From the NCBI GenBank assembly GCA_963575745.1, contig CAUYUJ010000183.1:1-64000 (forward strand): 64,000 nt of DNA. Reading direction: 5' to 3'. The notes below the pieces were generated by a model, which searched no databases, was not told where the DNA came from, and worked only from the letters and a program-made list of their open reading frames with translations. Below are positions 36,591 to 57,801 of the stretch, piece by piece; the first letter of the stretch is position 1; every line of letters begins with the position of its first letter. This DNA comes from Prorocentrum cordatum. Its lineage: Eukaryota. Made by a program: the position numbers and the translations under genes.

Positions 36591-36608
36591 GGAGGAAGGG
36601 AGGAGGAG
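36591..36608. repeat. Candidate target-site duplication (3' side) of the atpC retrocopy
   Basis: GGAGGAAGGGAGGAGGAG, identical to 38341-38358, which abuts and overlaps the SL; low complexity lowers certainty. Confidence 0.6.
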
Positions 36609-36871
36609 CGCAGCACAGGGCCCCTTACACACGGCCCGAGGAGACAGAGCCCCTCCGACTTCTGGTGACCACCGCTCGTCCACTGCACGCTAGCATAAAA
36701 ATCCCCTTGCACGGTCACGCCGAGACGAGCTTCCTGCAGTCACTGCAGAACTGCGTAGGCCATCCCAGTGCCTCCCAGGGCCTCCCCCCTGCCGAGGTGG
36801 AGGAGCGATTAGATCAAACAAAGACAGCAGAATACACCCTCTTGTGAATCCTGCACCCGGAGCGCGGACGC

Positions 36872-36952
36872 TCACTTGAGCGTCTCCCCGGTGAACCTCC
36901 AAATTGTGCTGTCGGCGTCAAGGATTGGGGGGGTCCGGAATGCCGAACTCCT
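36872..36952 (-). pseudogene. Degenerate tandem duplicate of the last ~27 codons and stop of atpC
   Basis: Reads EFGIPDPPN/fs/LDADSTIWRFTGETLK* versus the genuine EDGSIPDAPVSPDLDSDIRMFTGDTLK*. Confidence 0.75.
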
Positions 36953-36974
36953 GGACGCTCTAGCGCCCGCGCGC

Positions 36975-38243
36975 TCACTTGAGCGTGTCGCCCGTGAACA
37001 TCCTGATGTCGCTGTCGAGGTCCGGGCTCACGGGAGCATCCGGGATGGAGCCGTCCTCCAGCTCCGTCATGAAGTCCGCGCCCACGGTGTCCTCGTTGTC
37101 GAACTCGCCCAGCATGGTTCCGCTGCGCGTGCCCTTCTGCTCGACGCAGAGGCATCCGGCGGTGATCTCGCAGAGCTCCTGGGTGATGGCGGCCTGGCGC
37201 TTCTTGTTGTAGAGGATGGTGAGCCTCTCCCCGAGGTCTTTTGCGTTGTCCGTGGCCGCCTTCATCGCGGTCATGCGGGACCCGAGCTCGGAGGCCTGGG
37301 CGTCAAACAACATGGAGAGCAGCTGCGAATTCAGGTACAGCGGCAGCATGGAATTCAGGATAACCTCCGGGGGCTGGTCGAAGATCACGTCAGACTCGAT
37401 CTCCTTGGCATCCACCTTCTTCACCTTCTCCTTCTTCACGGACAATTTGCCGTCCTCGGAGGTAAGGGCGAAGGTCTCGTCGTCAGGATCCTCGATACCA
37501 GTGGGGCTCAGCGGCAGCACGGTGCGGACCTGCGGTTCGTTCAACAGCAGGTTAATGAACTTGGCGTAGATAACCTCCACCTTGTCCACCTCTCCCGACA
37601 GGAAGAGGTTCCTGAGCTCGTCGCCAATTTCAGCGATCGCGGCGGACGTAATGGAGTCAGGCATTCTGATGAAAGTCCCGGTGTAGTTCAGCTTCACCTC
37701 CTTCAGCTTGGTGTTCAGACCAGACAAAGCCTTTTTGCCGACGATGATCATCTTCGGCACGATACCCTCCTTGTTCAGGTCCTCAATGCGAGCAGCCGCC
37801 TTTTTCATGATCCTTGCGTTGTAGCCGCCGCAGAGGCCGCGATCGGATGTGATGAGAACGATGCCGACGTTGCTGACCTTCTCGGGCACGCGCAGCATCG
37901 GCAGCTCCGACTCCAGGCCGCTGCCCTTCAGCCTCTTGACCAAGCCCTTGATCATGGAGGACAGCTCGTCGCTGAATGGCCTTGCCTTCTCAACGCCAGC
38001 CTGCGCGCGGCGCACCTTGGCGGCGGCGACGAGGCGCATGGCCTCTGTGAGCTTGCCCGTCTTCGCAACGGACGCGATGCGCTCCTTCATCGCCTTGTCG
38101 ACGGCATTGGTCTGCACAATCGGCTTGCGACCTGCCCTTGCGGCTGTGCTGCCCACAAAGCCCGTGATGTCGCGGAAGTGCCAAAGCGAGGCGAGCAGCA
38201 GGCAGCCTGCAAGGGCGATCGCGGCGGATCCTCTGCGAGCCAT
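36975..38243 (-). CDS. atpC: Chloroplast CF1 ATP synthase gamma subunit, nuclear-encoded, plastid-targeted, intronless retrogene (422 aa)
   Basis: Motifs KERIASV..TGKLTEAMRLVAAAKVRRAQ, ITSDRGLCGGYN, LPLSPTG..DDETFALTSEDGKL (plastid/cyanobacterial insert), ASELGSRMTAMKAATDNA and YNKKRQAAITQE. N-terminal signal peptide followed by an FVG-type transit motif. ATG at 38243 lies ~50 nt downstream of the SL relics. Confidence 0.96.
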   Translation of the reverse strand: MARRGSAAIALAGCLLLASLWHFRDITGFVGSTAARAGRKPIVQTNAVDKAMKERIASVAKTGKLTEAMRLVAAAKVRRAQAGVEKARPFSDELSSMIKGLVKRLKGSGLESELPMLRVPEKVSNVGIVLITSDRGLCGGYNARIMKKAAARIEDLNKEGIVPKMIIVGKKALSGLNTKLKEVKLNYTGTFIRMPDSITSAAIAEIGDELRNLFLSGEVDKVEVIYAKFINLLLNEPQVRTVLPLSPTGIEDPDDETFALTSEDGKLSVKKEKVKKVDAKEIESDVIFDQPPEVILNSMLPLYLNSQLLSMLFDAQASELGSRMTAMKAATDNAKDLGERLTILYNKKRQAAITQELCEITAGCLCVEQKGTRSGTMLGEFDNEDTVGADFMTELEDGSIPDAPVSPDLDSDIRMFTGDTLK

Positions 38244-38292
38244 GACGCAACGAAGTCGAGCGGATCGCGGGTCGACCCTGAAACCCCGTGGT

Positions 38293-38343
38293 CTGAGCAA
38301 AAGATGCTTGAGCCCAAATGGCTTGAGCCAAAATGGCTACGGA
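38293..38343 (-). other. Three stacked spliced-leader copies upstream of atpC
   Basis: Minus strand: TCCGTAGCCATTTTGGCTCAAG (perfect, 38322-38343), CCATTTGGGCTCAAG (38307-38321), CATCTTTTGCTCAG (38293-38306). Confidence 0.95.
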
Positions 38344-38964
38344 GGAAGGGAGGAGGAGGAGGAGGAGGAGGAGGAGGAGGAGGAGGAGGAGGAGGAGGAG
38401 GAGGAGGAGGAGGAGGAGGAGGAGGAGGAGGAGGAAGGGAGGAGGGAGGATGAGAATGATGATGATGATGTTGATGATGAGGAGGAGGAGGAGGAGGGGA
38501 GGAGGAGGAGGAGGAGGAGGAGGAGGAGGAGGGGGAGGATAGGAGGAGGAGGAGGAGGAGGAGGAGGCGGAGGAGGAGGAGGAGGAGGAGATGAGGAGGA
38601 GGAGGAGGAGAGGAGGAGCGGGAGGAGAGGAGGAGAGGAGGAGGGGAGGAGGAGGAGGAGGAGGAGGAGGAGGAGGAGGAGGAGGAGGAGGAGGAGGAGG
38701 AGGAGGAGGAGGAGGAGGAGGAGGAGGAGGAGGAGGAGGAGGAGGAGGAGGAGAGGGAGGAGGGGGGGAAAGAGAGAGCGATCGAGAGAGGGGGGTCAGG
38801 CACGCGGCGGGTTCACGGGCGACGGAGGCACCACGGCTCAAGAGCACAGCGGAGGCACCACGGCAAGGCTGCGCGCCACCACGCGCGTGCGAGGCACGCC
38901 TGGGCAGCCGGCACGAAACCTGTTGTTGTGAGGAGCGTGCCGGGATAGGTGGCGGGGACGCATG

Positions 38965-40262
38965 TGAGCGCGGCCGCTGGGACCTTCGGTGGAGCTCCCT
39001 ATGGGGCCACGAAGCGTGTGAGGGGTGTGCCGAATTGGGTGTGCGGGACGCATGCGGGCGGCAGCCCTGGGGCCTTCGGTGGAGCTCCCTATGGGGCCAC
39101 GAAACGTGTGAGGGGTGTGCCGAATTGGGTTGCGTGACGCATGCGGGCGGTGGCGCTGGGCCTTCGGTGGAGCTCCCTATGGGGCCACGAAAGCGTGTGC
39201 GGGGTGTGCCGAATTGGGTGTGGCTGACGCATGCGGGCGGCAGCACTGGGGCCTTCGGTGGAGCTCCCTATGGGGCCACGAAGCGTGTAAGGGGTGTGCC
39301 GAATTGTGTGTGCGTGACGCATGCGGGCGGCAGCACTGGGGCCTTCGGCGGAGCTCCCTATGGGGCCACGAAGCGTGTGAGGGGTGTGCCGAATTGGGTG
39401 TGCGTGACGCATGCGGGCGGCAGCCCTGGGGCCTTCGGCGGAGCTTCCTATGGGGCCACGAAACGTGTGAGGGGTGTGCCGAAATGGGTGTGCGTGACGC
39501 ATGCGGGCGGCAGCACTGGGGCCTTCGGCGGAGCTCCCTATGGGGCCACGAAACGTTAGTGAGTGGTGTGGACCTGAATTGGTGTGGCGTGACGGCATGC
39601 GGGCGGCAGCCACTGGGGCCTTCGGCGGAGCTCCCTATGGGGGCCACGGAAACGTTGCTGCGGTGTTGTGCCGGAATCTGGCGTTGTGTGCGTGACGCAT
39701 GCCGGGCGGTGCAGCACCTGGGGACCTACGAAGGGCATACCTAAATGGGGCCACGAAACGTGTGAGGGGTGTGCCGAATTGGGTGTGCGTGACGCATGCG
39801 GGCGGCAGCACTGGGGCTTTCGGTGGGGCTCCCTATGGGGCCACGAAACGTGTGAGGGGTGTGCCGAATTGGGTGTGCGTGACGCATGCGGGCGGCAGCA
39901 CTGGGGCCTTCGGCGGAGCTTCCTATGGGGCCACGAAACGTGTGCGGGGTGTGCCGAATTGGGTGTGCGTGACGCATGCGGGCGGCAGCACTGGGGCCTT
40001 CGGCGGAGCTCCCATGGGGCCACGAAACGTGTGAGGGGTGTGCCGAACTGTGTGTGGGTGACGCATGCGGGCGGCAGCACTGAGGCCTTCGGCGGAGCTC
40101 CTATGGGGCCACGAAACGTGTGAGGGGTGTGCCGAATTGGGTGATCGCGTGACGCATGCGTGGGCGCGGCGGCGCATGGGGCCTTCGGTGGAGCTCCCTA
40201 TGGGGCCACGAAACGTGTGAGGGGTGTGCCGAATTGGGTGTGCGTGACGCATGCGAGCGGCA
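38965..40262 (+). repeat. 90-bp tandem satellite, ~14 copies
   Basis: Unit GGGGCCTTCGGYGGAGCTCCCTATGGGGCCACGAAACGTGTGAGGGGTGTGCCGAATTGGGTGTGCGTGACGCATGCGGGCGGCAGCACT; period 90 at 39241/39331/39421. Confidence 0.95.
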
Positions 40263-40601
40263 GCAAGGAGGCAGCGGGAGGAAGTAGAACGCGGGGCACC
40301 GTCTCTTCAAAACGAGGACCCAACACCACAGGATGGTTGGGAAAAAAATCGTCGGGATATCCGTTGTGAGCCTTCGGCCATGTCCGGCGGATTCTTTACA
40401 CGGCACGTTCTCGGAATGGTCGCATGCTCTCACATTCCCCAATCAGTGCTTGCACTGAAAGGGGTCCTAGCGAAAATTGAAAAATTTGGCGAAAATTTCC
40501 CGCCGATCTTGTTTCTGGGCCGATTCCGGTGGGCTCCCGCGTTCCCGGGTTCCCGGTCGATCTCTTTACCGATCCCACTTCGAAGCATCCACTGATGGGG
40601 T

Positions 40602-40788
40602 ACCCAGAGATGCGACGTCCTGATTTGTTCAGGACGGCGTCCCTGCAAGTCCCGACCCCTTCCCTGGGACCGGCTTTTCGTCCTGAGTTGCTTTTTCACG
40701 GTCCCGAGGCCCGGCGAGGGCCGCCCGGGGCCCAAAAAAGTAAAAAACCTCCCGTCCTGATTTTTTCACGACGCGATCATGTCTGGGT
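40602..40788 (-). mobile_element. MITE family A (~187 bp, TIR ACCCAGACATG)
   Basis: Ends ACCCAGAGATGCGACGTC / GACGCGATCATGTCTGGGT; homologous to 49675-49860, 50478-50664 and 58380-58557. Confidence 0.8.
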
Positions 40789-40789
40789 G

Positions 40790-40976
40790 CGGCAGGTTCG
40801 TGTCGCGTCGACCCCAGCGTTGGTTTTGACACCGCAGGGATCGTTCAACCTTGAACGATCGGCCGCTGCCGCAACGTCCGATCGTTCAACGTCGATCGAT
40901 TCTGGGTCGCCGGCGGCGTTCAACCTTGAACGCCCGCGCTGGGGTCGCCGCTGGTCGACACGACGCAAACCTACCG
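40790..40976. mobile_element. MITE family B, second copy
   Basis: Near-identical to 23986-24173; flanked by TG / TA. Confidence 0.85.
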
Positions 40977-41898
40977 TAATGTTTTCGTATCGTTCGTTCC
41001 CTCTGGCCTCCGCCAATCCGCCCCCCCCCCCCAGCCCCACGGCAAGCTGCGGGCTTACGGCGGGGTGCCCCCTCCTTGCTTCTATAGGGGCTGGGGTCGT
41101 CCTCCTTTCACACTCCCCCTCCGGCTAATACCTCTTCTCCTGCTCCGTCCTTTTCCTCCTCCTCCTCCTCCTCCTCATACCTCCTCCTCCTCCTCCGCCT
41201 CCTCCTTCTAATGCTATACACTCTTCCTACCTCCTCCGCCGCATAATGATACTGCTCTGTCCTCCGTACTCATCCTACTCCCGCATCCTCCTCCTCCACC
41301 TCCTCTCCGGCTCATCCTCCTCCTCCTCATTCTCCTTTCTTTTCATCTTCCTTTTCCTCCTCCTCCTCCTCCTCGTTCTCCTCTTCCTTCTCCTCCTCCT
41401 CCTCCTGCTCCTCCTTCACCTCCTCCTCCTCCTTCTCCTCCTCCTCCTGCTCGTCCTTCTCCATCCTGCTCCTCCTTAACCTCCTCCTCCTTCTCCTCCT
41501 CCTCCTCCTCCTGCTCGTCCTCCTCCATCCTCCTCCATCCTGTCCCACAGGCCTTGTGAATCATCCGATCCTCTGCTGGTCATCTGTTTGGCACGATGGA
41601 TGGCGGAATGCGGTGTCCAACCCGACCATGGTCTTCCTCCCTCGTTCCCCTCCTTTCCACATTCAAGGTCACCTCCAATCTCTGTTCAATTTCGCTATTC
41701 TGCTCATCTATTCATCCCCTCCTCCCCCAAAACGACTGCATGGGAAACACTGTCGCCTTACCACCACGTTCCCTTGCCCCTGCGTCTGCCCTTTTTCCCA
41801 CTCCTCATGTTTTGTTTCGGTTCCCACCTGTACCCGGCTCCCGGAATATTCCGCCGTACATGTCCACACGGAGAGATACACATTCACAATTATATGAC

Positions 41899-41930
<32 letters not shown>

Positions 41931-42149
41931 CGGAGGTGAGGGGGTGAGATCGAAGTGGAACGGAGAGCCCCCCTCTCGGGAAATCGGTTTCGGTTTCGTG
42001 TTCGTGCGCGCCGTGCGTGCGGCCGGCGAGGCGAAGCTGCGTGGGCGGGAGAGAAGAAAGTATTCTCTGGCTGAGGAGCGGCCGGACCAAATGATTCCTT
42101 TCCGGGGGCCGGTGGCCCGCGGTGTCCCGCCAGTGTCCCGTCGGTGTCC

Positions 42150-42174
42150 CGATGATGATAATGATGATGATGAA

Positions 42175-42226
<52 letters not shown>

Positions 42227-42423
42227 TCGATGATGTTGATGATGATGGTGATGGTGGTGATGATGATGGTGTCCAGATGATGCTGATGATGATGATGAAG
42301 ATGATGAAGATGTTCACGATGTTGATGATGATGATGACGGTGATGGTGATGGTGGTGATGATGATGGTGTCCCGATGCCGATGATATTGATGATGATGTT
42401 GCTGATGATGATGATGTTGTCCC

Positions 42424-42462
<39 letters not shown>

Positions 42463-42885
42463 CATGATGGTGTTCATGATGATGAGATGATGATGAGGTG
42501 ACGATGATGATGAAGATGATGATGATGGTGTTCCGATTATGCTGATGAGGTTGATGATGATGCTGTTGATGATGGTGATGATGATGATGGTGTTCCGATG
42601 ATGATGATGCTGCTGATGATGATGCAGACGATGATGGTGTCCCGATGCTGATGATGCTGATGGTGAGTATGATGATCAGGTGGTAATGCTGATTTTGCTG
42701 ATGATGACCCGATGATGGTGATGATGATGCTGATGTTGATGATGATGGTGTCCCGATGATGATGGTGATGGTGATGGTGACGATGATGATGGTGCCCCGA
42801 TGATAATGATGATGAAAAAACGATGTTGCTGATGATGATGATGATGAAGATGATGTTGATGATGTTGTTCATGATGATGATGATA

Positions 42886-42916
<31 letters not shown>

Positions 42917-43380
42917 CGATGAGATGATTATTATGGTGATGGTGGTGTTCCGACGATGATGGTGTCCCGATGATGATGATGTTGATGATGGTGACGATGA
43001 TGGTGTCCCGATGATGATGATGATGGTGATGATGATGTTGATGATGATGGTGATGAGGTGATGCTGATGGTGTCCCGATGATGATGATGTTGATGACGCT
43101 GATGACGATGATGATGATGATGATGATTTTGATGATGACGTTAATTGTGAGATCGGTTGAGATATCGATAGTGAGACCGAATGTGAGATCGATTGTGGGA
43201 TCGATAGTGAGATCGATAGTGAGATCGTCTGTGAGATCGATAATCAGATCGATTGTGAGATCGATCGAATGAACTAGATCGAGTGAGATCGATTGTGAGA
43301 TCGATCGAGTGAGATCGATCGAGCGAGACCGATAGTGAGATCGATAGTGAGATCGATCGTGAGACCGATCGAGTGAGACG
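42150..43380. repeat. Degenerate (GAT)n microsatellite followed by GTGAGATCGAT-type 12-mer repeats
   Basis: Direct reading. Confidence 0.9.
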
Positions 43381-44157
43381 TTGGTTCCTCCCCCCGAACC
43401 TCCTTATCACCCGAAGGGTGGCCGTATGGGTACATCTATATAATGATATGTATGCATGCGTGTATACCTGTAAGCACCATTTCTCAAGTTTAACGTACCC
43501 TTTGGTAATTTCTGCGCACCTGGCATGCCGCCTCCCCTGACGCTCTGGTCATCTGCCGCCCTGACTCTCTGACTCTCGCTCTCTCTCTCTCCCTCTTTGT
43601 CTCTCTCTTGGTCTGCCATCGTCCTCCCAATCCTGATCCTGCGGCTGCTCGTCCTCCAGCTCTCCCCCCCTAGGGAGCCGCCAGAGACCTGCGGGAACCT
43701 CCAGAAACTCTCCGAGGACCTCCAGTCACCCAGACACCCCAAACCTTGAGGAATCGCAGCAGGACGACTTCCTCCGAGGGAGACGTCCTCCGAGAACCTC
43801 CGAGGGCCCATCCGAGGAAGACGACGACGACAGCGCAGACGCAGGCAAGGACGACGGCGAGGACGAGAACGGGGACGACGACGGTGACGACGACGACGAG
43901 GACGACGGCGGCGAGGGCAACGGCGGCGAGAGCGACGCCGGGATCCACGAGAACGGCGACGAGCACAGCGAGCCCGAGGGCAGGTGCACGCCACGAGGAC
44001 CACGACGCGGAGGACCACGACGCAGCCGCGAGGCACCCCGCGGGCGCCGCCTCGCGCGGGGCCGGGGCACTCGTCCCTGATCTACGGCCTCGCGGCCAGG
44101 GACTCCTGATGGGGGCACTGTTACAGGCGCGGGGGGGGCGGGAAGCAGCTCACCGGG

Positions 44158-44222
44158 GTGGTGGGTGGTGGTGGTGGTGGTGGTGGTGGTGGTGGTGGTG
44201 GTGGTGGTGGTGGTGGTGGTGC

Positions 44223-44285
<63 letters not shown>

Positions 44286-44452
44286 TGGGTGCGTGGTGGT
44301 GGTGGTGGTGGTGGTGGTGGTGGTGGTGGTGGTGGTGGTGGTGGTGGTGTCGGTGGTGGTGGTGGTGGTGGTGGTGGTGGTGGTGGTGGTGGTGGTGGTG
44401 GTGGTGGTGGTGGTGGTGGTGGTGGTGGTGGTGGTGGTGGTGGTGGTGGTGG
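44158..44452. repeat. Compound (GGT)n-(GCGT)n-(GGT)n microsatellite
   Basis: Direct reading. Confidence 0.95.
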
Positions 44453-45287
44453 CTCGGGTAAGCAGTGGGTGGGGCCGCGGGCACGGCCCCTTCAGCGACA
44501 CCTCCCACTCGGGAATGGCTGGGGGTTAGGTGGCTCACCACCTGTCGGGGGGGTCTAATGCCGCAGCGTCACGGCGCCACTCGATCCGAGAGGCCACCCG
44601 GGCGAGGGGGACGAAGGGATCCCTCCAGAAGGGCCCCAGGGGACCCCCGTGCCGGGCGGACACCAGCAACACAGGGGGAGGCCATCGACCCAGAGTCGGC
44701 GATACGTCGGCGACAGGTCGGGCAGGTCATGGAGCTCCCGCAGGCCCCTGAAGGCCACTTGGGGACGAGAGGCTGCCGTGGGGCACCTGCTGGCAGGCAA
44801 GGTTCGCGCTTGAGGTGCCTGCTGCATCGGCGATCCATGGGCGATTGCGAGTGCATGCAGCTCCCCCCCTGGGCCGACGGTCTGAAATTTTAGCTTCGCG
44901 TATCGCGGCGGCGGTCCCAGCGACACGCCACGCCCTGGGAGGTGATGGATCGGGTGTCGCCCCGCTCCGCGGGGCGGGAGGCTGGAAGAGGCTCGGGAAG
45001 TTGACGCTGGGGGTCTGGGACGTGGTCAGCGCCTCGCGCCGAAGCATGGTGGGCCAGCACTGGCGGAGCGACCATCCCTACCTTTCGCACTGCACGGCGA
45101 CCGTGCAGGCTCGGCGAGCCATGGGCGGCTGGGAGCCCACGCGCCGACCCCCCTCCCCCCGGAGAGCATGCGGCAACTTCGCGGCGTGACGACGCCACCT
45201 CGGCGGTGGTCTCTGACGCCGCGTGGGCCGCTCGCCCTGAGACGATCGGCGGCGTCTGCCTCGCAGGCTGGTGCCATAGTGGCCGAT

Positions 45288-45437
45288 GGGGGGCCACACG
45301 CGAACCCTACCCCTACCCCCCACGACTTCTGAGGGGGGAGGGCGGGGTTCACTTCGCTCGGGAGAGCTCCCGAGCGAAGTGACCCCCCCCCCCTCAGAAA
45401 CCGTGGGGGGTAGGGGGAGGCTTCGCGTGTGGCCCCC
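45288..45437. mobile_element. ~150-bp near-perfect hairpin (foldback MITE-like)
   Basis: Outer arms GGGGGCCACACGCGAA; central perfect 16-bp stem TCACTTCGCTCGGGAG-AG-CTCCCGAGCGAAGTGA. Confidence 0.75.
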
Positions 45438-47239: not shown

Positions 47240-47342
<103 letters not shown>

Positions 47343-47861: not shown

Positions 47862-47961
47862 NNNNNNNNNNNNNNNNNNNNNNNNNNNNNNNNNNNNNNN
47901 NNNNNNNNNNNNNNNNNNNNNNNNNNNNNNNNNNNNNNNNNNNNNNNNNNNNNNNNNNNNN
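47862..47961. other. Assembly gap (100 N)
   Basis: Run of N. Confidence 1.
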
Positions 47962-49674
47962 CATCTAGGATCGGATCGACTCGGCATTGTGCGCTCGTTC
48001 AGGGCATGAGCAACCAACATCACGAAGACACGCTTGCTGGCAGGTGAGGACAGATGCGGTCGAATGAAGGCGAAGGGAGGGTGAAGGCCGTAGAATTACA
48101 GGATTCTGGGTTGGCCTGGCGCACGCCCGCGCAGGGGCGCGGGGTCCAGGCAGAAGGGACCAGTGCGGCCCACGACTCTGACGACGGCGGGGACGACGGA
48201 GGACGACGGCGAGGACGACAGGAGGAATGAAAGGGAGGAGGGGGGAGGAGGCGAGAGGGAGGGGGGGAGGGGGGGGGGAGGGCGAGGGCTGAAGGGAGGA
48301 GGAGGGAGGGAGGGGATGGTGGTTTAGTTATAGGAGAGGCATTGGGATAGGTAGGAAAGGGGAGGGAAGGAGGACAGGAAGGAGGAGGGAGGAGGAGTGA
48401 GGAGGAGGGGGAGGGGGAAAGGAAAGGGGGAATGGGGGGCGCCTCGCCGTCCTTCGGCTTCTCTTCCTCCACCTCTCCCTGGGGTCGGCTGGCCGCTGGC
48501 CGACGGGCCCAGGAGAGTGGCCCGAGGAGCCCAACAGGCAGACCGTCCCGAGCATGAGAAGAGAGGCCCCCGCCTCCTCCTCCTCCTCCTCGTCCTCCTC
48601 CTCCTCCTCCTCCTCGTCCTCCTCCTCCTCCTCCTCCTCCTCCTCCCTCCTGCCATAGCTCCCTCCTCTTGCTTGTCATCGTCCTCACTCCTCCACCTCC
48701 ACCTCCGCCTCCACCTCCTCCACCTCCTTCCCCTCCTCCTTTTTCCGTCAGGCAAGCATCAGCGGCGGGGCTGCTGCGTTCCAGCCTCCTCCTCCTTCTT
48801 TTTCTTCCTCCTTTTCCTCCTCTTCCTCCTCCCCTTCCCTCGCCAACCTGCGTCCCTCGCGAACCCTCCTCAGACACCTCATTTTCCATCATCTCTTCCT
48901 CCTCCCCCCCCCTCCCCGCCCCCCCATCATCTCCTCCTCCTCCTCCTCCTCCTCCTCCTCCTCCTCCTCCTCCTCCTCCTCCTCCTCCTCGTCCTCCTCG
49001 TCCTCCCCCGCCCCTCTCTGGGGAGGCGCTAGGCAGGGTTGGGGAGAGGCACGGCCAGAACCGACGCGGGTTTTTGTTGTTGCTCCAGCATTTCCGGAGG
49101 ATCTGCTTGCCTGTCTCGTTGGCCCTCCGCGCCTCCTGTGCCCGCCACTGCGTCCCAGTGACTGACCGCTGCTTGGAAACTGATCGCCGCCAACGAAACA
49201 TGACTGTCGTGTTGCCCCCTCTGGCCGTTCCCGGGCTCCCCCGCTCGCGCGCGGCCCGAACCTAGAAGACCAACAGATCTACGGACACACGTGAGCATGA
49301 TTTGTTGGAGGTCCGCGCAGACGTCCTGGGGTCCGCGCTACGGTCGGGAACTTGGCGTTCGGTCGGGCATGCCCCACACAGGTGGATGTTCGACGAAGCA
49401 TCCAGAGAACGGTCAAAAAAAAACAAAACAGTCAAAACGTGGTCGAACATCGTCCCCACATTTGTTGTTGCCTATGTTTTTGAATTTTCCAAAATAGAGG
49501 GACAGGCCCGACTTAAACCTCGCGTGCCGCGGCGGCGGCCCTGGCAGCACGCCACCCCTTGCGGGTCGCCCCGCCCCGCGGGGCTGGAGGCCGGGAAGGG
49601 CTCGGGGCGTCGACGCTGAGAACCTGAAAGTGGACGGAGCGCGTCGCGCCGAAGCCGCGTGGGCAAGAACCGGC

Positions 49675-49860
49675 CTCAGACATGCTCGCGTCGTAAAAGA
49701 AATCAAGACGGAAGGTTTTTGACAATTTTCGGCCCCGGGGGGCCCTCGCCGGGCCTCGGGACCGTCTAAAACGACTCAGGGCGAAACACCAGTCCTGGGG
49801 AAAGGGTGGGGACTTCCAGGGGCGCCGTCCTGAAAAGCTCAGGACGTCGCATGTCTGGGT
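49675..49860 (+). mobile_element. MITE family A copy
   Basis: CTCAGACATGCTCGCGTCG...AGGACGTCGCATGTCTGGGT. Confidence 0.8.
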
Positions 49861-50477
49861 CCACAAATCCTTAAGAGCTCACGACGTACGGCGGGGGCGT
49901 TGGACAAGGAAACCTTGGATAAGGAATCCAGAGTCTGGAACTGGAAGCACTCGGAAACTCCATTGCGGATCGGCAGTGGGCATCGCCGCCGCCCTCATCA
50001 GATAAGAAATTCCTCAAGGTCTGAAGCCTCCTGGGCACATTCCGTAAGCAATACCCCCACCGTATGAGTTCTTCCGAGTCTTGGAGGGTACAGACAGACA
50101 GACAGACACTCAATGTCGGGCAGCGCCCGGCCCTGCCCCTGCGCGGGGCCTGGGCGGATGGCACCGCAGTGCCTCGGGTGGACTCGTGCACGAAACCGCC
50201 CTCAAGCGGCTCGTCCACAACTCCGTATTGCAAGCGTGTGTAATCCAGACCCCGTCAGGGGCGTCACAACCTGCAGCACGCAAAAAAATACCAAATCGTC
50301 AGCCCAGCGTTGTCGAGGTCTCCCGGGCAGCCTCGCGCCTGCGGGCGTCCGGCTCCTCCGGCGGAGAGGAGTGGCTCGCCACAACGGACTCCCAACAGCG
50401 GAGGAGGCGCGTCGTCGCTGCCAGCGCTCCCCCCTCCCGAGCGCATTCCGCGGTCCGCGAGAAGCGCGGTCCCCATG

Positions 50478-50664
50478 CAGACATGATCGCGTCGTAGACA
50501 AAAATCAGGACGGGAGGTGTTCGGCTATTTTCGGCCCCGGGGGGCCCTCGCCGGGCCTCGCGGGACCGTCAAAAACGACTCGGGACGACAACCCGGTCCC
50601 GGGGAAAGGGTTGGGACTTCCAGGGGCGCCGTCCTGAAAAGATCAGGACGTCGCATGTCTGGGT
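50478..50664 (+). mobile_element. MITE family A copy, 15 bp upstream of the LINE target site
   Basis: CAGACATGATCGCGTCG...AGGACGTCGCATGTCTGGGT. Confidence 0.8.
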
Positions 50665-50679
50665 CCCTCTCCTGCACCT

Positions 50680-50696
50680 CCCGGCAAGGGGAAGTC
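50680..50696 (+). repeat. 5' target-site duplication of the SL-capped LINE
   Basis: CCCGGCAAGGGGAAGTC versus CCCGGCAAGGGAAAGTC at 57785-57801 (16/17); the last two nt overlap the SL. Confidence 0.9.
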
Positions 50697-50716
50697 CGTA
50701 GCCATTTTGGCTCAAG
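50695..50716 (+). other. Perfect DinoSL at the 5' end of the retroelement
   Basis: TCCGTAGCCATTTTGGCTCAAG, 22/22 match. Confidence 0.97.
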
Positions 50717-50883
50717 GTTTTGGTTTCCCCTGGGAACAAAGTGGATACCGCTAGTCCGCGGCCAGCTTTCATCCTTCGCCTGGTTCGCCCCAGGCAGAGC
50801 GGTGCGTGGTCCGCCCCACGCATCGCAGCTTGCGGCACGGCCTCCCAGCACAGGAGCCCGTGGCCCAGTCTCCTGCGAGCGCC

Positions 50884-51933
50884 ATGGCTCCTCGGAGGGT
50901 TGCTGCTGACGAACCGTGGATATGCAAGTCGTGTGTCCACTCTGTCACTGGCAAGCCGTGGTTCAATGCAAGAGGTACGTTGTACTGCAAGCAGTGTCAG
51001 CTTCATAAGTCGGTGGTGTTCAAAGAGTACAAACGAGGTAAGGTCCCTAGTGTCCATGCTGCGGGATCCAAGAGCCCCAGCCAAGTGGACAAAGGCCTCG
51101 CCGCTCGGTGTGCACAGCTCGAAGAACAGGTCAAGAGGCTCACCGCAGAGAAGGCTGAGCCATCACCTCCACCACCATGGGCGCAGTCACAGCCTGACGG
51201 AGCTGAAGAGAAACGCAAGCGCATCAAGGAGCTGGACTCCATCATGCGCCTGCTCTCCTCCGACAGGGATGCGACGGTGCTGGCCAATTATAAAAAGGAG
51301 AAGGAGACCTTGGAGCGGGAGCTGTTTGATGGACGCCCGATTGAGGACCAGGCTCGATCGCTGGCGGCGAAGCTCCAGCACGCGAGGTCCCACGAGTCCA
51401 GCGTGCGCAGGGCGGTCGAGGAGCAGAGAGCCAAGATCCTGGAGCTGCAGGGACACTTGGACAAGGCTGAGGCCAAGCTCGTGGAGGCGTCCGCTGAGGT
51501 GGTTAGGCTCGAGGAGGACACGCGCAAAGCCATGTCCCAGGCCCGCCCGCCAGAGCAGGAAAGGCCGCCCACGCTCCATGAGATGCTTCCTGGGTTCGCG
51601 GTGTCGGTGGAACAGTTGGGGCGTGTTGCCAGTACTCTGGGCTTGGGGCCTGATCTTACGGCAGGGCTACAAGCTATGGCGGAGACGGTCACCAAGCTGC
51701 AGCAGGCGCCGCAGGCAAAGCCACCCTCGCCCCATGCCCCAGAGCCCCCTGCACAAGAGCCTGAAGATGATGAAATTTCAGACATCGAGATGGGGGAGGA
51801 AGACATGCGGGCCACGCTCAATGCTGCAGGAATCCCTACGGACGAGAACGTCTCCGCCGAGGCAGTCACGGAGAGGTTCAAGAGGTTCCAGCCGACGTGC
51901 ATTGAGGCGTGCAAGAGGGCTCGCAAACAATAG
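50884..51933 (+). CDS. Retrotransposon ORF1 (349 aa): N-terminal C4 zinc finger, long coiled coil, acidic/basic tail
   Basis: GCCATGG start. W-I-C-K-S-C...W-F-N...Y-C-K-Q-C motif; heptad-rich E/K/L/A region (e.g. LELQGHLDKAEAKLVEASAEVVRLEE); C-terminal KRARK. Confidence 0.85.
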   Translation: MAPRRVAADEPWICKSCVHSVTGKPWFNARGTLYCKQCQLHKSVVFKEYKRGKVPSVHAAGSKSPSQVDKGLAARCAQLEEQVKRLTAEKAEPSPPPPWAQSQPDGAEEKRKRIKELDSIMRLLSSDRDATVLANYKKEKETLERELFDGRPIEDQARSLAAKLQHARSHESSVRRAVEEQRAKILELQGHLDKAEAKLVEASAEVVRLEEDTRKAMSQARPPEQERPPTLHEMLPGFAVSVEQLGRVASTLGLGPDLTAGLQAMAETVTKLQQAPQAKPPSPHAPEPPAQEPEDDEISDIEMGEEDMRATLNAAGIPTDENVSAEAVTERFKRFQPTCIEACKRARKQ

Positions 51934-51955
51934 ATTTGCCAGCATCGGGATTGGA

Positions 51956-54900
51956 ATGTTACTCAGTTCTGCAGCAGCAATGGCGGCAAGCAATGATGTG
52001 TCCCCTCGAAGCGGGGTATCAGCTTCACTCGCGACTCCAGGGAGGACTACGGCGTCGGCGGCGAGTACTACACCGCGGGCAAGTGTCTCCTGGGATGTGT
52101 CTGAGGTTATTGGCACGAGTCGGCTACCCCCAGGGAGGCTCACTCGGCTTGCCGAGCAGAGGCCTGAGGCGGAACCCCGTGCATCGTGTACGTCACGGGG
52201 GGCGGCTGCGTCTACGCCATCGGCGCATGTCTCTTGGGATGAGAATGGTATTGGCACGAGCTGGCTACCCTCAGCAATGCTCACTCGGCCTGCCGAGCAG
52301 AGTGCTGAGGTGGAACCCCGTGCATCGTGTACCCTGCAGAGTGCGGCTTCTGCTTCGCAGACGGGGTGTGCACCGATGACATTCTCAGCCCCAGGAGGTA
52401 CGCACTGCTCACCGTCCGTCGACAGCGGGCAAGCAGCAATGAGGACAACTGAGGGCGGAGAGTACCGACCGCGGGAGGCCAGGGGCCCCCACGGCACGCA
52501 CCACTCACCCTCTTCGCCTCGCTGTGAGCCTGCCCCGACATCGGACGGCAGAGGGTACCGACCTACTGGGGCCATGGTGGGATCAAACATGGACGGGGAG
52601 TACGACCCGTTCGAGTTTCTTGACGCAGATCGAGAAGCTGACGACCTCTTCCCCACTATTTGCCCGAACCCCTTGGAAATACGTCAGTCAGAACGCGATG
52701 AGGCTGCAAGTGCAGCCTCTTCATCTCCCTCCGCCCCCGCTGATGAACATTTGGATCTCGGACGTGGTAGCATGAGCGTCGGGTCCGATATATCTAAGAC
52801 GGGCGAGTTGGAGGGAAAATCTTCTTCACCCGCCATTGCGGGAACAATTATGTCGGTGAATGCAGGCTCCTTCGGGCCATTGTTCGACTTCCTGGCTGTT
52901 GCGAAGGCCAAGATCATCTGTGCACAGGAGACGAGGATTGTGGAGTCACGCCTCGGGGAGTTCCAGCACCGCGCCAAGGACCTCGGCCTCCACGGGATGT
53001 GGGCACCAGCCCTGGCGACCAACGCCAGGGGCCCGCAGGCCAATCACTGCGGGGTCGCCATACTGGTGCCCACGAACGTGATGATCACGAAGCCTCCTGA
53101 CGGCGACCCCATCATCTACCCAGGCAGAGTGGTTGCCAGCTTTGTCAATTGGGGCGTCCCTGGGGGGGGTGATTGTGGTCAGTGCATACTTGGTGACGAG
53201 CATTGGGCTGACGGGTGAAAACCTTTCCATTCTGTGGGCCATAGCGCAGAGAGTTGCGACCTGGAGCGCTGCGGGTTTCGATTGGATCTTAGCAGGTGAC
53301 TGGAATTCTGACATAGCAGCTCTGAATGCGAGGAGGTGGATTGAGTCTCTTGCTGGGTTGTCTTACACGCCAGCGTCGGCCACGTGCTGCAAGGAGGACG
53401 GCAAGTCTACGATCGATTACTTCATCGCGTGTGCAAATCTGTCGTCTAAGCTCGGGGCTGCAGTGGTGGAAGATATGTGCGGCACAATACCACCCCCGCA
53501 TTACCCAGTTAGTACCGACCTCCTGGGCAAAGATAGGCCAGCATGGTGTCTCGTGCCAGACGAGCCAAGGGCTTTCCCTGTTACTCCGCCATGTGGGTGC
53601 GCCAGGTTCCCGTACCCGTGGGAGGCAGTGGACCATGTTTTTCTGGAAGTCAAGGAGGTTACAGATTTGGCCCTGCTGTGGGACACAGTCCTGGACGGTA
53701 TCGACTTCGAGCTGGCAGGGAGGTATGACAAGGTTGACAAGGACGCGGCCCCTTTCGTCGGCAGGTCAGGCCCTCCACGTTTCAAGTGGAAGCTGCTGGC
53801 ATGGGAACCTCCGCGTCGGCGCACGCACCGCGAGCCCAAGGTCTATGCTTGGGCGACGGCCAAGAGATGGTGTCAGCATCTCAGGTCGGAGCGGGACCGA
53901 CTGGGCAGGTTTTGTCAACGGTTGCAGTTGGCTTCAGTGGTCTGCCAGCTAACGCCCCTGCAGCACGCCAAGGTGTTGCAGGCCTTCTACGAGGTGGACC
54001 AATATTGCCGCAGGATCGCCCGCGACAGGAAGACATGTCACTACCTTGATCAGGACACCGTAGACTTCCTGCTGCGGGGCCTGGGCATGATCGGCGATGC
54101 TGACTTCGACTCGGGCCTGGACAACATCACGAGGAAGGCCGATGAGGTGCTGAAGGCAGCGGGAGGGGCCTCGGAGAAGGCTTGGCGAGGCTGGGCCAAG
54201 CAGGCTTTCCTGGGTGGGGCCAGTCGGGCCCATGCAGCCTCCAAGGTGCGCGGCAAGCAGGAGCAGCTCAATTTCGACGTGAACGCTCAGCCGTACCTGC
54301 TGGCAAACCACACCCTTGACGCGTGGGAGGGCGCATGGCGGCATCACGACCTTTTGCCCCCAGGGCTGCCGCCAGGCCACGAGAGCTGGCCTGCTCTGCC
54401 CGAGCTCGACCACCAGCAGGCGCGGGCTGCCATTCGCAAGTTTTCGACGCGGACGGCAGCTGGGCCGAGCAGAATTTCACCCAGATGCCTGGACGCTCTG
54501 TCGGACCAAGCGCTCGAGCGCATGGCCAAGATGTTTATGTTTTTCGGTCAGTGGCTGTCCTGGCCTCCTGAGCGGGTTTACAGTGAAATGGTTCGCTTAC
54601 CCAAACCTGACGGGGACACACGATTGATTGTTCTATCTCACGCTTTGGTGCGTATCTGGGGCAAGCTCAGGATACCAGTCTCGGCAGCGTGGCAGGCTGG
54701 CTACCAGCGCGACCAGATGTGGGGCACGAGAGCGGGCCACACGTCGACGGACTCGGCGTTTGATCATAATATTCAGCAGGAGGTTGCGCAGTTGTTGGGG
54801 GAACAGACATGTACGATCTTGCTTGATATGAGCAAGTGTTACGACATGGTGGACCCACATGCGTTGCTCCGAGAAGGCCAGGCTCTGGGGTTTCCACTAC

Positions 54901-57623
54901 GTCTGCTGTGGCTCCTCATTCAGAGCTACCAACAGCCCCGTCGTATAAGGGCCTTTGGGAGTGTATCCAGAGGGTTTCGGTCCTTCCAGGGGATCTTAGC
55001 TGGGTGTACTCACGCTACGTACGTCTTGTACTTGCTTACCTATAGGTCGGTGCATAGGGTCTCGAAGGTCTCCCCCACGGTGACCCCGAGGACGCTCATG
55101 GACGACATTGGGCTCCAACGTACCTCCCAGGACCCCACGGAGGCCAAGTACCTTGCGCTGGCGGCGAGGGGGTTCATCCAGGACTCCAAGGGCCTCGGCA
55201 TGATCTTGAAGGCTTCCAAGTCTGGGGCTGTTGTTGGTTCTCGGAAGTTCTGGAAGGGGGTGCAGCGCCACATGGGCTCCATGAAGATCCCGTACAAAGG
55301 CCACATGAGGAACCTAGGTCACGAGCTCACGGGGCCCAAGGTGATTCGAGGCATGGAAAAGAAGCGTCTCAAACAGCTCAGGGAGAGGGAGGCGAGGTTT
55401 TCCATGCTGAAGTCTGCTGTCGGCAAGGTCGCGACGGCTCTGTGGCGCACAGGCGCCCTCCCATCAGTGGCGCACGGTGCTGCAGTTGCTGGAGTAAGCG
55501 ACGTTGCACTTCGAGAGTTGCGTCTTTTCGCCGCCGTCTTGAACGGCGCGCCAGGTAAATTTAATACTGGTGTGACCGCCTACTTGGTTAGCCACAAGAG
55601 CGATTTCTACGATCCTATTTACCACGCCACTCTAGCCATTGTCATCAAGTTTGCGGAGTGGGTCTGGGACAGGAGAATACCCGACAGTCGTTTACATAGG
55701 GCTTGGGAGGCTCTTCGAGATAAGATTGGCACACTGTCTTGGGCAAATACTCGAGGCCCGATCGGGGCCTGTTGGCTGACCTTACGACGTATTGGGTGGA
55801 ATCTAGTATCTAGCCATATGGTGGCTGATGATGTAGGCAACGTTTTCGATCTGCGAGTTATGTGCCCTGCCGACCTGAAGGTCTTCCCCACTCAGGGGAT
55901 CCAGCGTTGGCAGGACGAGCGGCTGCTCAAGCATTTTTATACTGCTGAGCCTGGCGAGCAGATGTGGCACCGAGGCTTACGTAACTCGGTGAAGAGCATC
56001 AAGTGCGTTCGTAGACTCGGGGCCCTCCAAGCGCACTGGTCGGGAAACCTCCCCATCCCTCAGCTCCAAGATGCCCGCCATAAGGTACCAATCAGGCCGT
56101 GTGCTGCTTGTGGGGCCCAGTCTCAGGGTATTTGGGGCCACGTGCTCTACGACTGCCCCGAGCTGCTCAAGCAGCGCGAGGACTTCTTGGACATCTCAGA
56201 GGACTTGGAGGCAACCAGAGGCATGCTCCTGAAGGGGGGCGAATGGTATGATGGGCGTCTGGCTTGGGACTCCAGTTATCTGGTCTTCGGGGTCCCTGCT
56301 CCTCCTGTGGGTATTCCTGGGCTCGACACTATAAGCACAGAAGTTCTTCTTTGGGGCGATACCGACGGGCCTTGGGGCCCCAAGAGCTACACCGACGGCT
56401 CGGGCCTCGCATCCAGCGTTCCAGAGACTAGGCGGTGTGGGTATTCATGCATCCAGCTGGACCCCAAGACTCTTTTGCCTGTCCGTGCTGTGTACGGACC
56501 CCTGCCCTTCTATGTGCAGACTGTTGGCCGTGCTGAGAGATATGCGATCAAAATGGGTTTGGAATTTCATCCAGATCACGAGCTGTTTGTGTCTGACCTC
56601 CTGGGACTGGTTACCGAGGGCAACTCCTGGGACCAATCCCTCCAGCACGGCCGAGGCAAGCACGCCAGGATATGGCGAGAGATTTTTCAGGCTGCGCAGC
56701 GTCGGGTACTTGAGTACCCTGTTCGTTTTGAGTGGACTCCTGCACACCGTGACATCGACAGTGTGCTGGAGAATCCTGAAGAGGTGGATAACTGGCTCGG
56801 CAATGCCTGGGCTGACTATTTCGCCAAGGCGGGTGCGGCGCACCACATGATCGCCAACACGGTTCCCCAGTCGCTCTCGGAGGCCCTGAAGGTCCATAAG
56901 GCCACGTTGCAGTTTGTGTCTTGGGCGTGCTTACGGGTTATCGTCTCGGAGAGCTGGGGCCGAGGTCCCCCACCACCTGTCCAGGATCCTGAGGCTCGTG
57001 AAATCCTGGGGCAGCCAGTCGTATTCGGACGGGGTTCTGACCATGAGCTTTGGTGGTGCAAGAGGCTCAACGAGCACAGGTGCAGGAGTTGCGGGAGATC
57101 GGCTCGATCGGACTCGACCCTAGCGTGGCTTAGGACGGGGTCGGGAAGGAGATGTGAGCCCTCTAGCCTCCAGAGGGTAGCCTGTGCGGAATGGTTTAAG
57201 AATTCGGTGGAGGTCTGGGTCAAAGTGTCGGACCCCCGCGTCGCCCCGTCGCAGGTGATTGTCGCGGAGTTTCTTGGGGAAGGGCCTTCAGAGGCCTCGG
57301 AGGGTCCCCTTCCTGGGCCCACGGACCCTCCCCAGGAGCCTGCCGTAGGCGAGGTTTCAAACAGTTCGGGGTCGAACGAGTTCATTGCCGAACTTGCGGC
57401 ATTGGGCCATGACGTTTTTCGTGTGAATTCAGTCTACTGCTGCCGCAGGTGTGCGGGCACGACGACCCTCGAGACGTCACGGAGCGTTCGGAAGCTCCGT
57501 CGTCCCTGTGCTGGGCTCTCAGAGAATCCGAGCACGAGGGCTAATCAGCTGGGGTTGATCGACAGGATCTTCCACGGCCGACCAGGGCGCCCCAAGCGCC
57601 CCGAGGGCAAGGCGCAGACGTAA
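51956..57623 (+). CDS. Retrotransposon ORF2 (APE endonuclease, reverse transcriptase, CCHC zinc finger, RNase H, C-terminal Cys/His motifs), split by one extra G at 53162-53169
   Basis: APE: IMSVNAG, ICAQETR, GVAILV, AGDWN, TIDYFI, PHYPV. RT: LPKPDGDTRLIVL, LLDMSKCYDMV, GILAGC, LMDD, RNLG. Zinc finger CAAC..H...C. RNase H: YTDGS, RAE, FVSD, PAH, GNAWADYFAK. Start uncertain (51956 or 52850). Confidence 0.9.
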
Positions 57624-57784
57624 CGTGTCTCGCCCTCCTGGGAGCGGTTTTGTGGCGTCGGTTTTCCCTGGCCCCCGCCTGCCCTCCCAGTTCATAATAC
57701 TTCCGCCGCGTTGCGGCCCTCAGGGTCCCATCTGTTCCTGAGGCGTGTTCGGATCGGACGCGCTCTCGGTGGCCCTCACCCTCA

Positions 57785-57801
57785 CCCGGCAAGGGAAAGT
57801 C
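57785..57801 (+). repeat. 3' target-site duplication of the SL-capped LINE
   Basis: CCCGGCAAGGGAAAGTC, 161 nt after the ORF2 stop. Confidence 0.9.

What the first reader, a model, noticed from the sequence alone, without database searches (positions are those of the whole stretch)
36591..57801. Shared junction signature links the SL-LINE to host-gene retroposition (candidate engine of mRNA recycling)
Seen: the LINE and the atpC retrocopy each have a full-length SL at the 5' junction and a 15-bp duplication outside the SL (CCCGGCAAGGGRAAG; CTCCTCCTCCCTTCC in sense). In both, the duplication extends 2-3 nt into the SL 5' end (TC / TCC microhomology), and neither has a poly(A) tail. Inference: the same RT/endonuclease acts in cis and in trans, anchoring second-strand synthesis by microhomology to the SL cap end. 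This would supply a concrete mechanism for the known abundance of SL-relic retrogenes in dinoflagellates.
Basis: partly seen in the sequence, partly recalled or inferred. Interest (0 to 1): 0.85.

Follow-up and report, generated by a model that had tools for sequence, protein, structure and literature searches.

The report
Spliced-leader LINE and retrocopy junctions
A dinoflagellate jumping gene (LINE) was copied back into the genome from a messenger RNA that still carried the host's spliced leader, and a second, unrelated leader-tagged insertion nearby has the same kind of flanking duplication, which hints at, but does not prove, which machinery recycles dinoflagellate mRNAs into genes.

Summary
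The LINE part holds. A 7,090-bp element (50695-57784) begins with a perfect 22-nt dinoflagellate spliced leader (SL). It encodes ORF1 and an endonuclease/RT ORF2, has no poly(A), and is flanked by a 16/17 duplication that is unique in the window and above chance.

The atpC part does not hold on sequence alone. Its exact 18-nt repeat sits in CT-rich simple sequence, and 30% of shuffled flanks and 89% of neighbouring words match as well. RNA contigs run through the repeat to an A-rich site about 130 nt further on. Context keeps it open at about 50%.

I found a better case in the same window. A 2.4-kb non-LINE SL-headed insert (18729-16352, minus strand) has a non-repetitive duplication (a unique exact 14-mer, about 23 nt in all) and no poly(A). 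Its duplication starts T|CCC, as the LINE's does.

So integration of SL-capped cDNAs by a LINE-type mechanism is supported (n=2, plus one ambiguous). Action of this particular LINE in trans, and microhomology to the cap end, remain inference.

In 71 SL retrocopies from metagenome contigs, simple repeats abut the SL 5' end in 14. No enrichment of flanking duplications was detectable there, but the test was underpowered.

The parts
50680..50696 (+). 5' copy of the LINE target-site duplication (17 nt; its last 2 nt, TC, are also the first 2 nt of the SL)
50695..50716 (+). Perfect 22-nt dinoflagellate spliced leader at the 5' end of the LINE
50717..50883 (+). LINE 5' UTR
50884..51933 (+). LINE ORF1 (349 aa; CxxC pairs at the N terminus; no Pfam family)
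52574..57623 (+). LINE ORF2. The N-terminal half of the endonuclease is in one frame and the rest (endonuclease C-half, RT, RNase H-like YTDGSG region) in the next. The single frame change falls exactly at a G8 run, 53160-53167.
57624..57784 (+). LINE 3' UTR, ending in (CCCTCA)2 with no poly(A)
57785..57801 (+). 3' copy of the LINE target-site duplication (16 of 17 identical to the 5' copy)
38322..38343 (-). Perfect 22-nt SL heading the atpC retrocopy, followed by relic SLs at 38321-38307 and 38306-38293
36975..38243 (-). Intronless ATP synthase gamma (atpC-type) ORF, 422 aa
38341..38358 (-). 5' copy of the candidate atpC duplication (18 nt, at the end of a (CTC)n tract)
   Evidence: not above chance
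36591..36608 (-). 3' copy of the candidate atpC duplication, at the start of an 84-nt CT-rich tract
36464..36590 (-). Stretch beyond the candidate duplication that RNA contigs still cover. The contigs end at 36471-36483 in an AAAAC-rich site that is followed by an A7 run.
18729..18751 (-). 5' copy of the duplication flanking the third SL-headed insert (CCCCCAAAC + AGTGCTTGCACTTG; the last G is also SL base 1)
16352..18729 (-). Third SL-headed insert, about 2.38 kb. It has an SL with 1 mismatch and one relic. It has no Pfam ORF, no LINE similarity and no poly(A).
16326..16351 (-). 3' copy of that duplication (CCCCCAAAAAAT + AGTGCTTGCACTTG)
23483..23504 (-). Old, degenerate SL (3 mismatches) followed by (TATC)n. 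No flanking duplication was found (best score 8).

Best explanation
The window holds three young insertions of SL-capped cDNAs.

(1) An autonomous non-LTR retrotransposon. Its layout is SL, 5' UTR, ORF1, then an ORF2 with an APE-type endonuclease, an RT and a probable RNase H. Its RNA was trans-spliced with the host SL and copied to its very 5' end. It was inserted by target-primed reverse transcription at a cut staggered by 17 bp, without a poly(A) tail. This step is shown.

(2) A 2.4-kb non-LINE SL-headed cDNA inserted in the same manner. It has a duplication of about 23 bp, no poly(A), and the same T|CCC start of the duplication. This step is shown. It means a LINE-type endonuclease/RT also acts on other SL-capped RNAs.

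(3) An atpC retrogene that lies in CT-rich simple sequence. Its 18-bp duplication may be real or may be chance.

Three further points are inferred. The enzyme may come from this LINE family. It may nick the bottom strand at 5'-GGG^A-3'. It may join the cDNA end at the SL through 1-3 nt of overlap.
For: LINE
- The SL is exact.
- The duplication is 16 of 17 and unique in the window. It is reached by 3 of 500 shuffled flanks and 0 of 36 neighbouring words.
- RVT_1 scores 31.5 bits, above its cut-off.
- The relative P0006 (35% identity over 98% of ORF2) carries Exo_endo_phos and RVT_1 above cut-off and a weak RNase_H. Its endonuclease N-half aligns to the window at E 9e-20.
- There are no terminal repeats and no second copy in the window.

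Third insert
- The exact 14-mer occurs only at the two junctions.
- 0 of 500 shuffles and 1 of 36 neighbouring words reach its score.
- CCCCCAAA precedes the 14-mer in both copies.
- It has no similarity to the LINE beyond the SL.
- Both clear duplications start T|CCC.

The duplications of 17-23 bp fit a LINE endonuclease. They do not fit the 4-6 bp made by LTR-element integrases (established knowledge).

atpC context
- CT-rich sequence lies on both sides.
- Two metagenome retrocopies, L053 and L071, sit inside simple repeats with the repeat on both flanks and no poly(A).
Against: - Only two clear events were seen, in one window, and no genome was available.
- The atpC duplication is not above chance. 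RNA contigs from 3 of 4 runs cross it.
- The three inserts share no 3' tail sequence, so there is no SINE-like recognition signal.
- In metagenome contigs, anchored flank matches were 3 of 33 at SL junctions against 6 of 76 at decoy positions. All 3 were tandem-array repeats. None of 3 loci with 2.6-8.6 kb of downstream sequence showed a duplication.
- The T|CCC motif is post hoc (n=2).
- The LINE ORF2 has a frame change at a G8 run. This copy may be dead, or the assembly may be wrong there.
Confidence: 0.6

Rival explanations
1. The atpC 'duplication' is a chance match between two CT-rich simple-sequence tracts. On this view the retrocopy runs from the SL to the mRNA's own poly(A) site at about 36471, and the A7 run is what is left of the tail. 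It entered beside a (CTC)n tract without a target-site duplication. The LINE and atpC then share no junction signature.
For: - 148 of 500 shuffled flanks and 32 of 36 neighbouring words match as well.
- Better or longer matches exist at 33304-33276 and 38445-38425.
- Contigs X2 36471-37241 (4 differences), X1 36477-36674 (0 differences) and X3 36483-36899 cross the repeat and end at an AAAAC-rich site beside the A7 run.
- All four runs differ from the window at the same CDS sites. The expressed copies are therefore not simply this locus, yet they share this 3' end.
- 14 of 71 SL retrocopies elsewhere abut simple repeats on the 5' side.
Against: - The repeat is exact over 18 nt and flush with the SL.
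- CT-rich sequence resumes exactly at the proposed 3' boundary, as the flanking repeats do in L053 and L071.
- The other two SL inserts in the window have real duplications and no poly(A).
- No duplication flanks the SL-to-A7 version either.
- A retrogene can read through into its flank to the next poly(A) site.
Confidence: 0.5
2. Many SL retrocopies, possibly including atpC, are captured at breaks in simple repeats by host repair. This would be endonuclease-independent insertion, and LINE-type integration would be only one of two routes.
For: - Low-complexity flanks occur right at the SL in 14 of 71 retro-type loci. This compares with 4 of 132 at 150-290 nt upstream (Fisher p 1.3e-4) and 0 of 29 SL RNA genes.
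- Among loci with at least 230 nt upstream, the counts are 9 of 44 at the junction against 1 of 44 further out.
- 0 of 3 long loci have a duplication.
Against: L053 and L071 are compatible with a duplication hidden in the repeat period (7+10k nt in L053). An endonuclease with a taste for simple repeats would give the same picture. The contigs are short and come from other species.
Confidence: 0.3
3. An LTR retrotransposon (Ty1/copia-type) or a retroviral RT and integrase made these copies, as proposed in the literature (PMC6050394).
For: The only support is the published suggestion, which rests on expression of copia elements (PMC6050394, passages read).
Against: The duplications are 17 and about 23 bp, not 4-6 bp. 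The inserts have no LTRs. One of them is itself a non-LTR element.
Confidence: 0.05
4. The SL on the LINE is not from trans-splicing. Either the element landed in an SL RNA gene, as SLACS/CZAR/NeSL-type elements do, or the RT switched templates onto SL RNA.
For: None was found.
Against: The duplication lies outside the complete 22-nt SL. The 3' flank repeats the 5' flank and is not the SL intron. The 30 SL RNA genes in the metagenome loci all continue GTA...CCTTTT after the SL. Only the exon part of SL RNA is present in the LINE.
Confidence: 0.03

Closest known systems
L1-mediated formation of processed pseudogenes and retrogenes in mammals (recalled; mentioned in PMC12014239 and PMC5585692, passages)
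   Same: A LINE endonuclease/RT acts on its own RNA and on other mRNAs. The inserts are intronless cDNAs with target-site duplications of roughly 7-20 bp. Short microhomology at 5' junctions is known for L1 (recalled).
   Different: There is no poly(A) tail at any of the junctions here. The full capped 5' end (SL) is retained rather than truncated. The duplication starts at T|CCC instead of the A-rich L1 site. Trans action here is inferred from one non-LINE insert.
Dinoflagellate mRNA recycling: relic-SL retrogenes (Slamovits and Keeling 2008, cited in the papers read; Song et al. 2017, PMC5585692; PMC12014239)
   Same: DNA-encoded SL and stacked relic SLs lie upstream of intronless genes. atpC here has one full SL and two relics.
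   Different: Those papers identify retrogenes by the SL only. In the passages read, they state that the enzyme is unknown. They report no flanking duplications, tails or SL-headed LINEs.
SL-gene-specific non-LTR elements (SLACS/CZAR/CRE of trypanosomatids, NeSL-1 of nematodes; recalled)
   Same: A non-LTR retrotransposon is physically associated with spliced-leader sequence.
   Different: Those elements insert inside SL RNA genes and use a restriction-like endonuclease. Here the whole SL is part of the inserted cDNA, the site is not an SL gene, and the endonuclease is APE-type.
LINE clades with an APE endonuclease, RT and RNase H and with non-poly(A) tails (I, Tad, R1/LOA-like; recalled)
   Same: The domain order is the same, an ORF1 is present, and the 3' end is a short repeat rather than poly(A).
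   Different: The clade was not determined. The window copy's own RNase H region and endonuclease C-half score below Pfam cut-offs. The nearest relatives are unnamed proteins labelled Prorocentrum cordatum and Symbiodinium.

Membership tests
APE-type non-LTR retrotransposon (LINE) | Reverse transcriptase domain | tested here: met
   RVT_1 E 1.8e-7, 31.5 bits against a cut-off of 29.6, at ORF2 residues 490-701.
APE-type non-LTR retrotransposon (LINE) | Apurinic-like endonuclease N-terminal to the RT | tested here: met
   The window's endonuclease C-half scores 17.3 bits for Exo_endo_phos, below the cut-off. The relative P0006 scores 31.3 bits, above the cut-off. Its endonuclease N-half aligns to the window at 37% identity, E 9e-20. 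The frame is broken once, at a G8 run.
APE-type non-LTR retrotransposon (LINE) | No long terminal repeats; flanked by a target-site duplication of variable length | tested here: met
   Self-BLAST shows only an internal 108-nt duplication. The flanking duplication is 16 of 17.
APE-type non-LTR retrotransposon (LINE) | Many dispersed copies with a shared 3' end | not testable with these tools
   No genome is held. There is no second copy in the window. Protein relatives exist.
LINE-made processed retrocopy (L1 type) | cDNA of a mature mRNA: 5' end of the mRNA and no introns | tested here: met
   A full SL heads atpC and the 18729 insert. The atpC ORF is uninterrupted. The parent's intron content is unknown.
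LINE-made processed retrocopy (L1 type) | Target-site duplication flush with both ends | tested here: inconclusive
   Met for the 18729 insert (0 of 500 shuffles reach its score). For atpC it cannot be distinguished from chance (148 of 500).
LINE-made processed retrocopy (L1 type) | Poly(A) tail before the 3' duplication | tested here: not met
   There is no A run at 57784, 36609 or 16352.
SL-gene-specific LINEs (SLACS/CZAR/NeSL) | Insertion inside an SL RNA gene | tested here: not met
   The duplication lies outside the complete SL. The 3' flank is not an SL intron.
LTR-retrotransposon or retroviral integration | 4-6 bp duplication and LTRs | tested here: not met
   The duplications are 17 and about 23 bp, and there are no LTRs.

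The most novel reading that the evidence does not exclude
A dinoflagellate LINE family uses host SL trans-splicing to obtain a precisely capped, full-length RNA, so it needs no promoter of its own. Its endonuclease/RT nicks at 5'-GGG^A-3', makes 17-23-bp duplications, needs no poly(A) and favours simple repeats. On this reading that enzyme is the long-sought engine that recycles SL-capped host mRNAs into the thousands of relic-SL retrogenes of dinoflagellates.
Probability: 0.25. Interest if true: 0.85.

Novelty: new variant of a known kind. Interest (0 to 1): 0.6.

Why it matters
About a fifth of dinoflagellate genes are said to be retrogenes (PMC5585692, PMC6050394). Reviews up to 2025 say the responsible reverse transcriptase is unknown. 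One of them favours LTR elements (passages read). Junction anatomy is the only sequence-level trace of the enzyme.

Two clear SL-headed inserts, one of them a LINE, carry 17-23-bp duplications. This points to LINE-type target-primed reverse transcription and away from integrase. It also turns the question into a simple genome-wide test. Separately, an SL-headed LINE shows how a retroelement can define its 5' end through host trans-splicing.

Tried and rejected
- Own-genome search: none is held.
Only 36200-38370 was laid. The LINE's RNA, and its 5' and 3' ends in other copies, were therefore not examined.
- In X15, the bin depths suggest the 3'-UTR contig stops near 36615, and nothing covers 36492-36564. 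In X1, contig depth falls from about 209 to 65 over the same stretch. A part without cover proves nothing, so this is at most a weak hint of a major RNA end at the proposed boundary.
- One X1 contig matches only up to 36615, has a T insertion at 36601, and then runs on unlike the window. It is uninterpretable from 30 letters.
- A metagenome scan for an atpC 25-mer gave 0 hits.
- A search for LINE ORF2 in viral contigs gave no match.
- tblastn of the LINE proteins against the 127 fetched loci gave no hit.
- PDB sequence searches gave nothing for ORF2 and one chance-level hit for the RNase H-like region.
- Pfam found no RNase H in the window copy.
- No 3'-tail similarity or common 3' fold was found among the three inserts.
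- A Pfam scan of 95 ORFs of 200 aa or more found no other credible gene in the window.
- Notes from earlier scans gave nothing on this genome or on this LINE.
- Literature searches and passages of eight papers gave no report of an SL-headed LINE or of duplications flanking dinoflagellate retrogenes. Supplements were not read, and subscription journals are not covered.
Full report
What is in the window

The 21-nt core of the dinoflagellate spliced leader (SL) occurs four times. No occurrence is expected in shuffles (relic search).
- 50696-50716, plus strand, exact.
- 38322-38342, minus strand, exact.
- 18708-18728, minus strand, 1 mismatch.
- 23483-23503, minus strand, 3 mismatches.

No whole genome is held for the window. 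Apart from the two genes below, a Pfam scan of 95 ORFs of 200 aa or more found nothing credible.

The LINE

From 50695 the sequence reads as follows.
- The full 22-nt SL.
- A 167-nt leader.
- ORF1, 349 aa, with no Pfam family.
- ORF2, from about 52574 to 57623.

ORF2 scores above the RVT_1 cut-off. Its closest full-length relative, P0006, shares 35% identity over 98% of ORF2. P0006 carries Exo_endo_phos and RVT_1 above cut-off and a weak RNase_H. The endonuclease N-half of P0006 aligns to the window in one frame (E 9e-20), and the rest aligns in the next frame. The frame switch falls exactly at a G8 run, 53160-53167. It is either a 1-nt mutation or an assembly error.

Other relatives are unnamed proteins labelled Prorocentrum cordatum and Symbiodinium.

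The element ends ...CCCTCACCCTCA at 57784, with no A run. It has no terminal repeats and no second copy in the window.

The 17 nt before the SL recur directly after the last base, with 16 of 17 identical. The last two of these 17 nt, TC, are shared with the SL. The two copies are the only matches in the window. Only 3 of 500 shuffled flanks and 0 of 36 neighbouring words score as high.

The flanks lie in a dispersed 165-nt repeat family, but the duplicated word is not part of it.

Because the duplication lies outside a complete SL, the SL was part of the RNA that was copied. The alternatives of insertion into an SL gene, or a template switch onto SL RNA, are excluded by the 3' flank and by the absence of SL-intron sequence.

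atpC

On the minus strand an exact SL and two relic SLs precede an uninterrupted 422-aa ATP synthase gamma ORF (E 9e-81). The 18-nt word is present at both stated places and is exact. It ends a (CTC)n tract on the 5' side and begins an 84-nt CT-rich tract on the 3' side.

Controls show that this is not more than chance.
- 148 of 500 shuffled flanks reach its score.
- 32 of 36 neighbouring words reach its score.
- 60% of 55 random low-complexity anchors have an anchored match of score 18 or more.
- A better match lies 5 kb away.
- A longer exact match lies 85 nt upstream of the junction.

Contigs of four public runs cover only about 36471-38343, as expected for RNA. In three of the four runs a contig crosses the repeat.
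- X2: 36471-37241, 4 differences from the window.
- X1: 36477-36674, 0 differences.
- X3: 36483-36899.

These contigs end in an AAAAC-rich site beside an A7 run. All four runs differ from the window at the same CDS sites. The expressed copies are therefore paralogues or copies from other strains.

But the transcript also runs about 130 nt beyond that point. That fits either read-through from a retrogene into its flank, or a retrocopy that really ends at the A7 run.

Context favours a real insertion into simple sequence. CT-rich DNA resumes exactly at the boundary. Two metagenome retrocopies show the same layout (below). I leave this case at about 50%.

A third, clearer case

The SL at 18729-18708 has a G as its first base and is followed by one relic. 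It heads a 2.38-kb insert with no ORF family and no LINE similarity.

The 14 nt before the SL recur at 16339-16326, and those are the only two occurrences in the window. CCCCCAAA precedes the 14-mer in both copies, with a small indel between. The duplication is therefore about 23 nt long. No shuffled flank (0 of 500) and 1 of 36 neighbouring words reach its score. There is no poly(A).

Both clear duplications begin T|CCC. This was noticed post hoc, with n=2. The overlaps with the SL are 2 nt (LINE), 1 nt (this insert) and 3 nt (atpC). They give p 0.004 for three events and 0.05 for two, without correction for C-richness.

The three inserts share no 3' sequence or fold.

Other dinoflagellates

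I sorted 136 distinct SL sites into three classes.
- 78 retro-type sites.
- 30 SL RNA genes.
- 28 AT-rich sites.

Simple repeats abut the SL in 14 of 71 retro-type sites that have at least 30 nt upstream. The share falls with distance to 1 of 47 at 150-180 nt. It is 0 of 29 for SL RNA genes (Fisher p 1.3e-4). Among sites with at least 230 nt upstream, the counts are 9 of 44 at the junction against 1 of 44 further out.

L053 (a 10-nt minisatellite) and L071 ((CA)n) have the repeat on both sides of the retrocopy and no poly(A). These are insertions into simple repeats.

A scan for anchored duplications found 3 of 33 at junctions against 6 of 76 at decoy positions. All three were tandem arrays of flank plus SL. 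None of the three loci with 2.6-8.6 kb downstream had a duplication. The contigs are short, so this test is weak, but it does not support a universal duplication.

The first SL base is A in 30 of 30 SL RNA genes. In the 78 retro-type sites it is T in 49, A in 19, G in 5 and C in 5. That base may therefore not be a faithful copy, which weakens arguments built on overlap with it.

Mechanism

Shown: SL-capped RNAs, including a LINE's own RNA, are copied to their 5' end and inserted with duplications of 17-23 bp and no poly(A). That is the footprint of target-primed reverse transcription by an endonuclease-bearing LINE. It is not the footprint of an integrase.

Inferred:
- The same enzyme served both inserts.
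- It comes from this family.
- It nicks at 5'-GGG^A-3'.
- Short overlap helps join the cDNA end.

Literature

Passages of PMC5585692, PMC6050394, PMC12014239, PMC8045281, PMC7245778, PMC3229502, PMC10666404 and PMC11453091 were read. These passages were found through four searches. They call the enzyme unknown, and one favours LTR elements. They mention neither SL-headed LINEs nor flanking duplications.

Verdict

This is a new variant of a known kind (LINE-mediated retroposition). It is of moderate to high interest because it makes an open question directly testable.

Noticed in passing
window 16326-18751 (minus strand): A third SL-headed insert of about 2.38 kb with a significant flanking duplication of about 23 nt and no poly(A). 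It became the main support for trans action.
   Followed up: yes
L002-L127 (metagenome loci): Simple repeats sit directly upstream of DNA-encoded SLs in 14 of 71 retro-type sites, against 0 of 29 SL RNA genes. The share decays within about 150 nt. L053 and L071 show the repeat on both sides of the insert.
   Followed up: partly
L019 (also L003, L125, L044, L062; L001 from IMG/VR): AT-rich (GC 0.16-0.36), giant-virus-like contigs. L019 has an intronless RPB2, eIF4E and a RING protein. Exact host SLs are encoded 39-76 nt upstream of ORFs, each behind a conserved AT-rich word. The first SL base is A, as in SL RNA genes. An earlier scan note describes such promoter+SL cassettes in lake giant viruses.
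   Followed up: partly
L002-L127: The first SL base is A in 30 of 30 SL RNA genes. In the 78 retro-type genomic SLs it is T in 49, A in 19, G in 5 and C in 5. This would fit a modified first nucleotide that reverse transcriptases misread.
   Followed up: no
window 49698-49859, 50500-50663 (+); 58381-58531, 40623-40760, about 47824 (-): A dispersed repeat of about 165 nt with TCAGGACG / CGTCCTGA palindromic ends. The LINE sits 17 nt from one copy.
   Followed up: partly
window 53160-53167: The only frame break of LINE ORF2 is at a G8 homopolymer. It may be an assembly error, so the copy may be intact.
   Followed up: partly
window 36869-36914 and 36972-37017: The atpC 3' UTR holds an 80% identical 46-nt copy of the end of the ORF, including the stop codon.
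   Followed up: no
window 52084-52191 and 52228-52332: An internal tandem duplication of 108 nt (83% identity) lies between LINE ORF1 and ORF2.
   Followed up: no
window 36471-38343, runs X1, X2, X3, X15: All four runs differ from the window at the same sites, mostly A>G and T>C on the plus strand. At least two 3'-UTR types and several 5'-UTR variants of atpC are expressed. This points to a multi-copy family. RNA editing was not examined.
   Followed up: no
L007, L038, L045: In three loci the SL is preceded by the same palindromic word (TTTAAAAGGACCCCGGGGTCCTTTAAAAGG-like). These may be insertions into a repeated palindromic element.
   Followed up: no
L002, L029: Flank plus SL recur 0.7-0.9 kb downstream. 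These are tandem arrays of SL-bearing gene units, that is, DNA-level duplication after retroposition.
   Followed up: no
window 23204-23504 (minus strand): A degenerate SL is followed at once by about 280 nt of (TATC)n / (TA)n simple sequence. No flanking duplication was found.
   Followed up: partly
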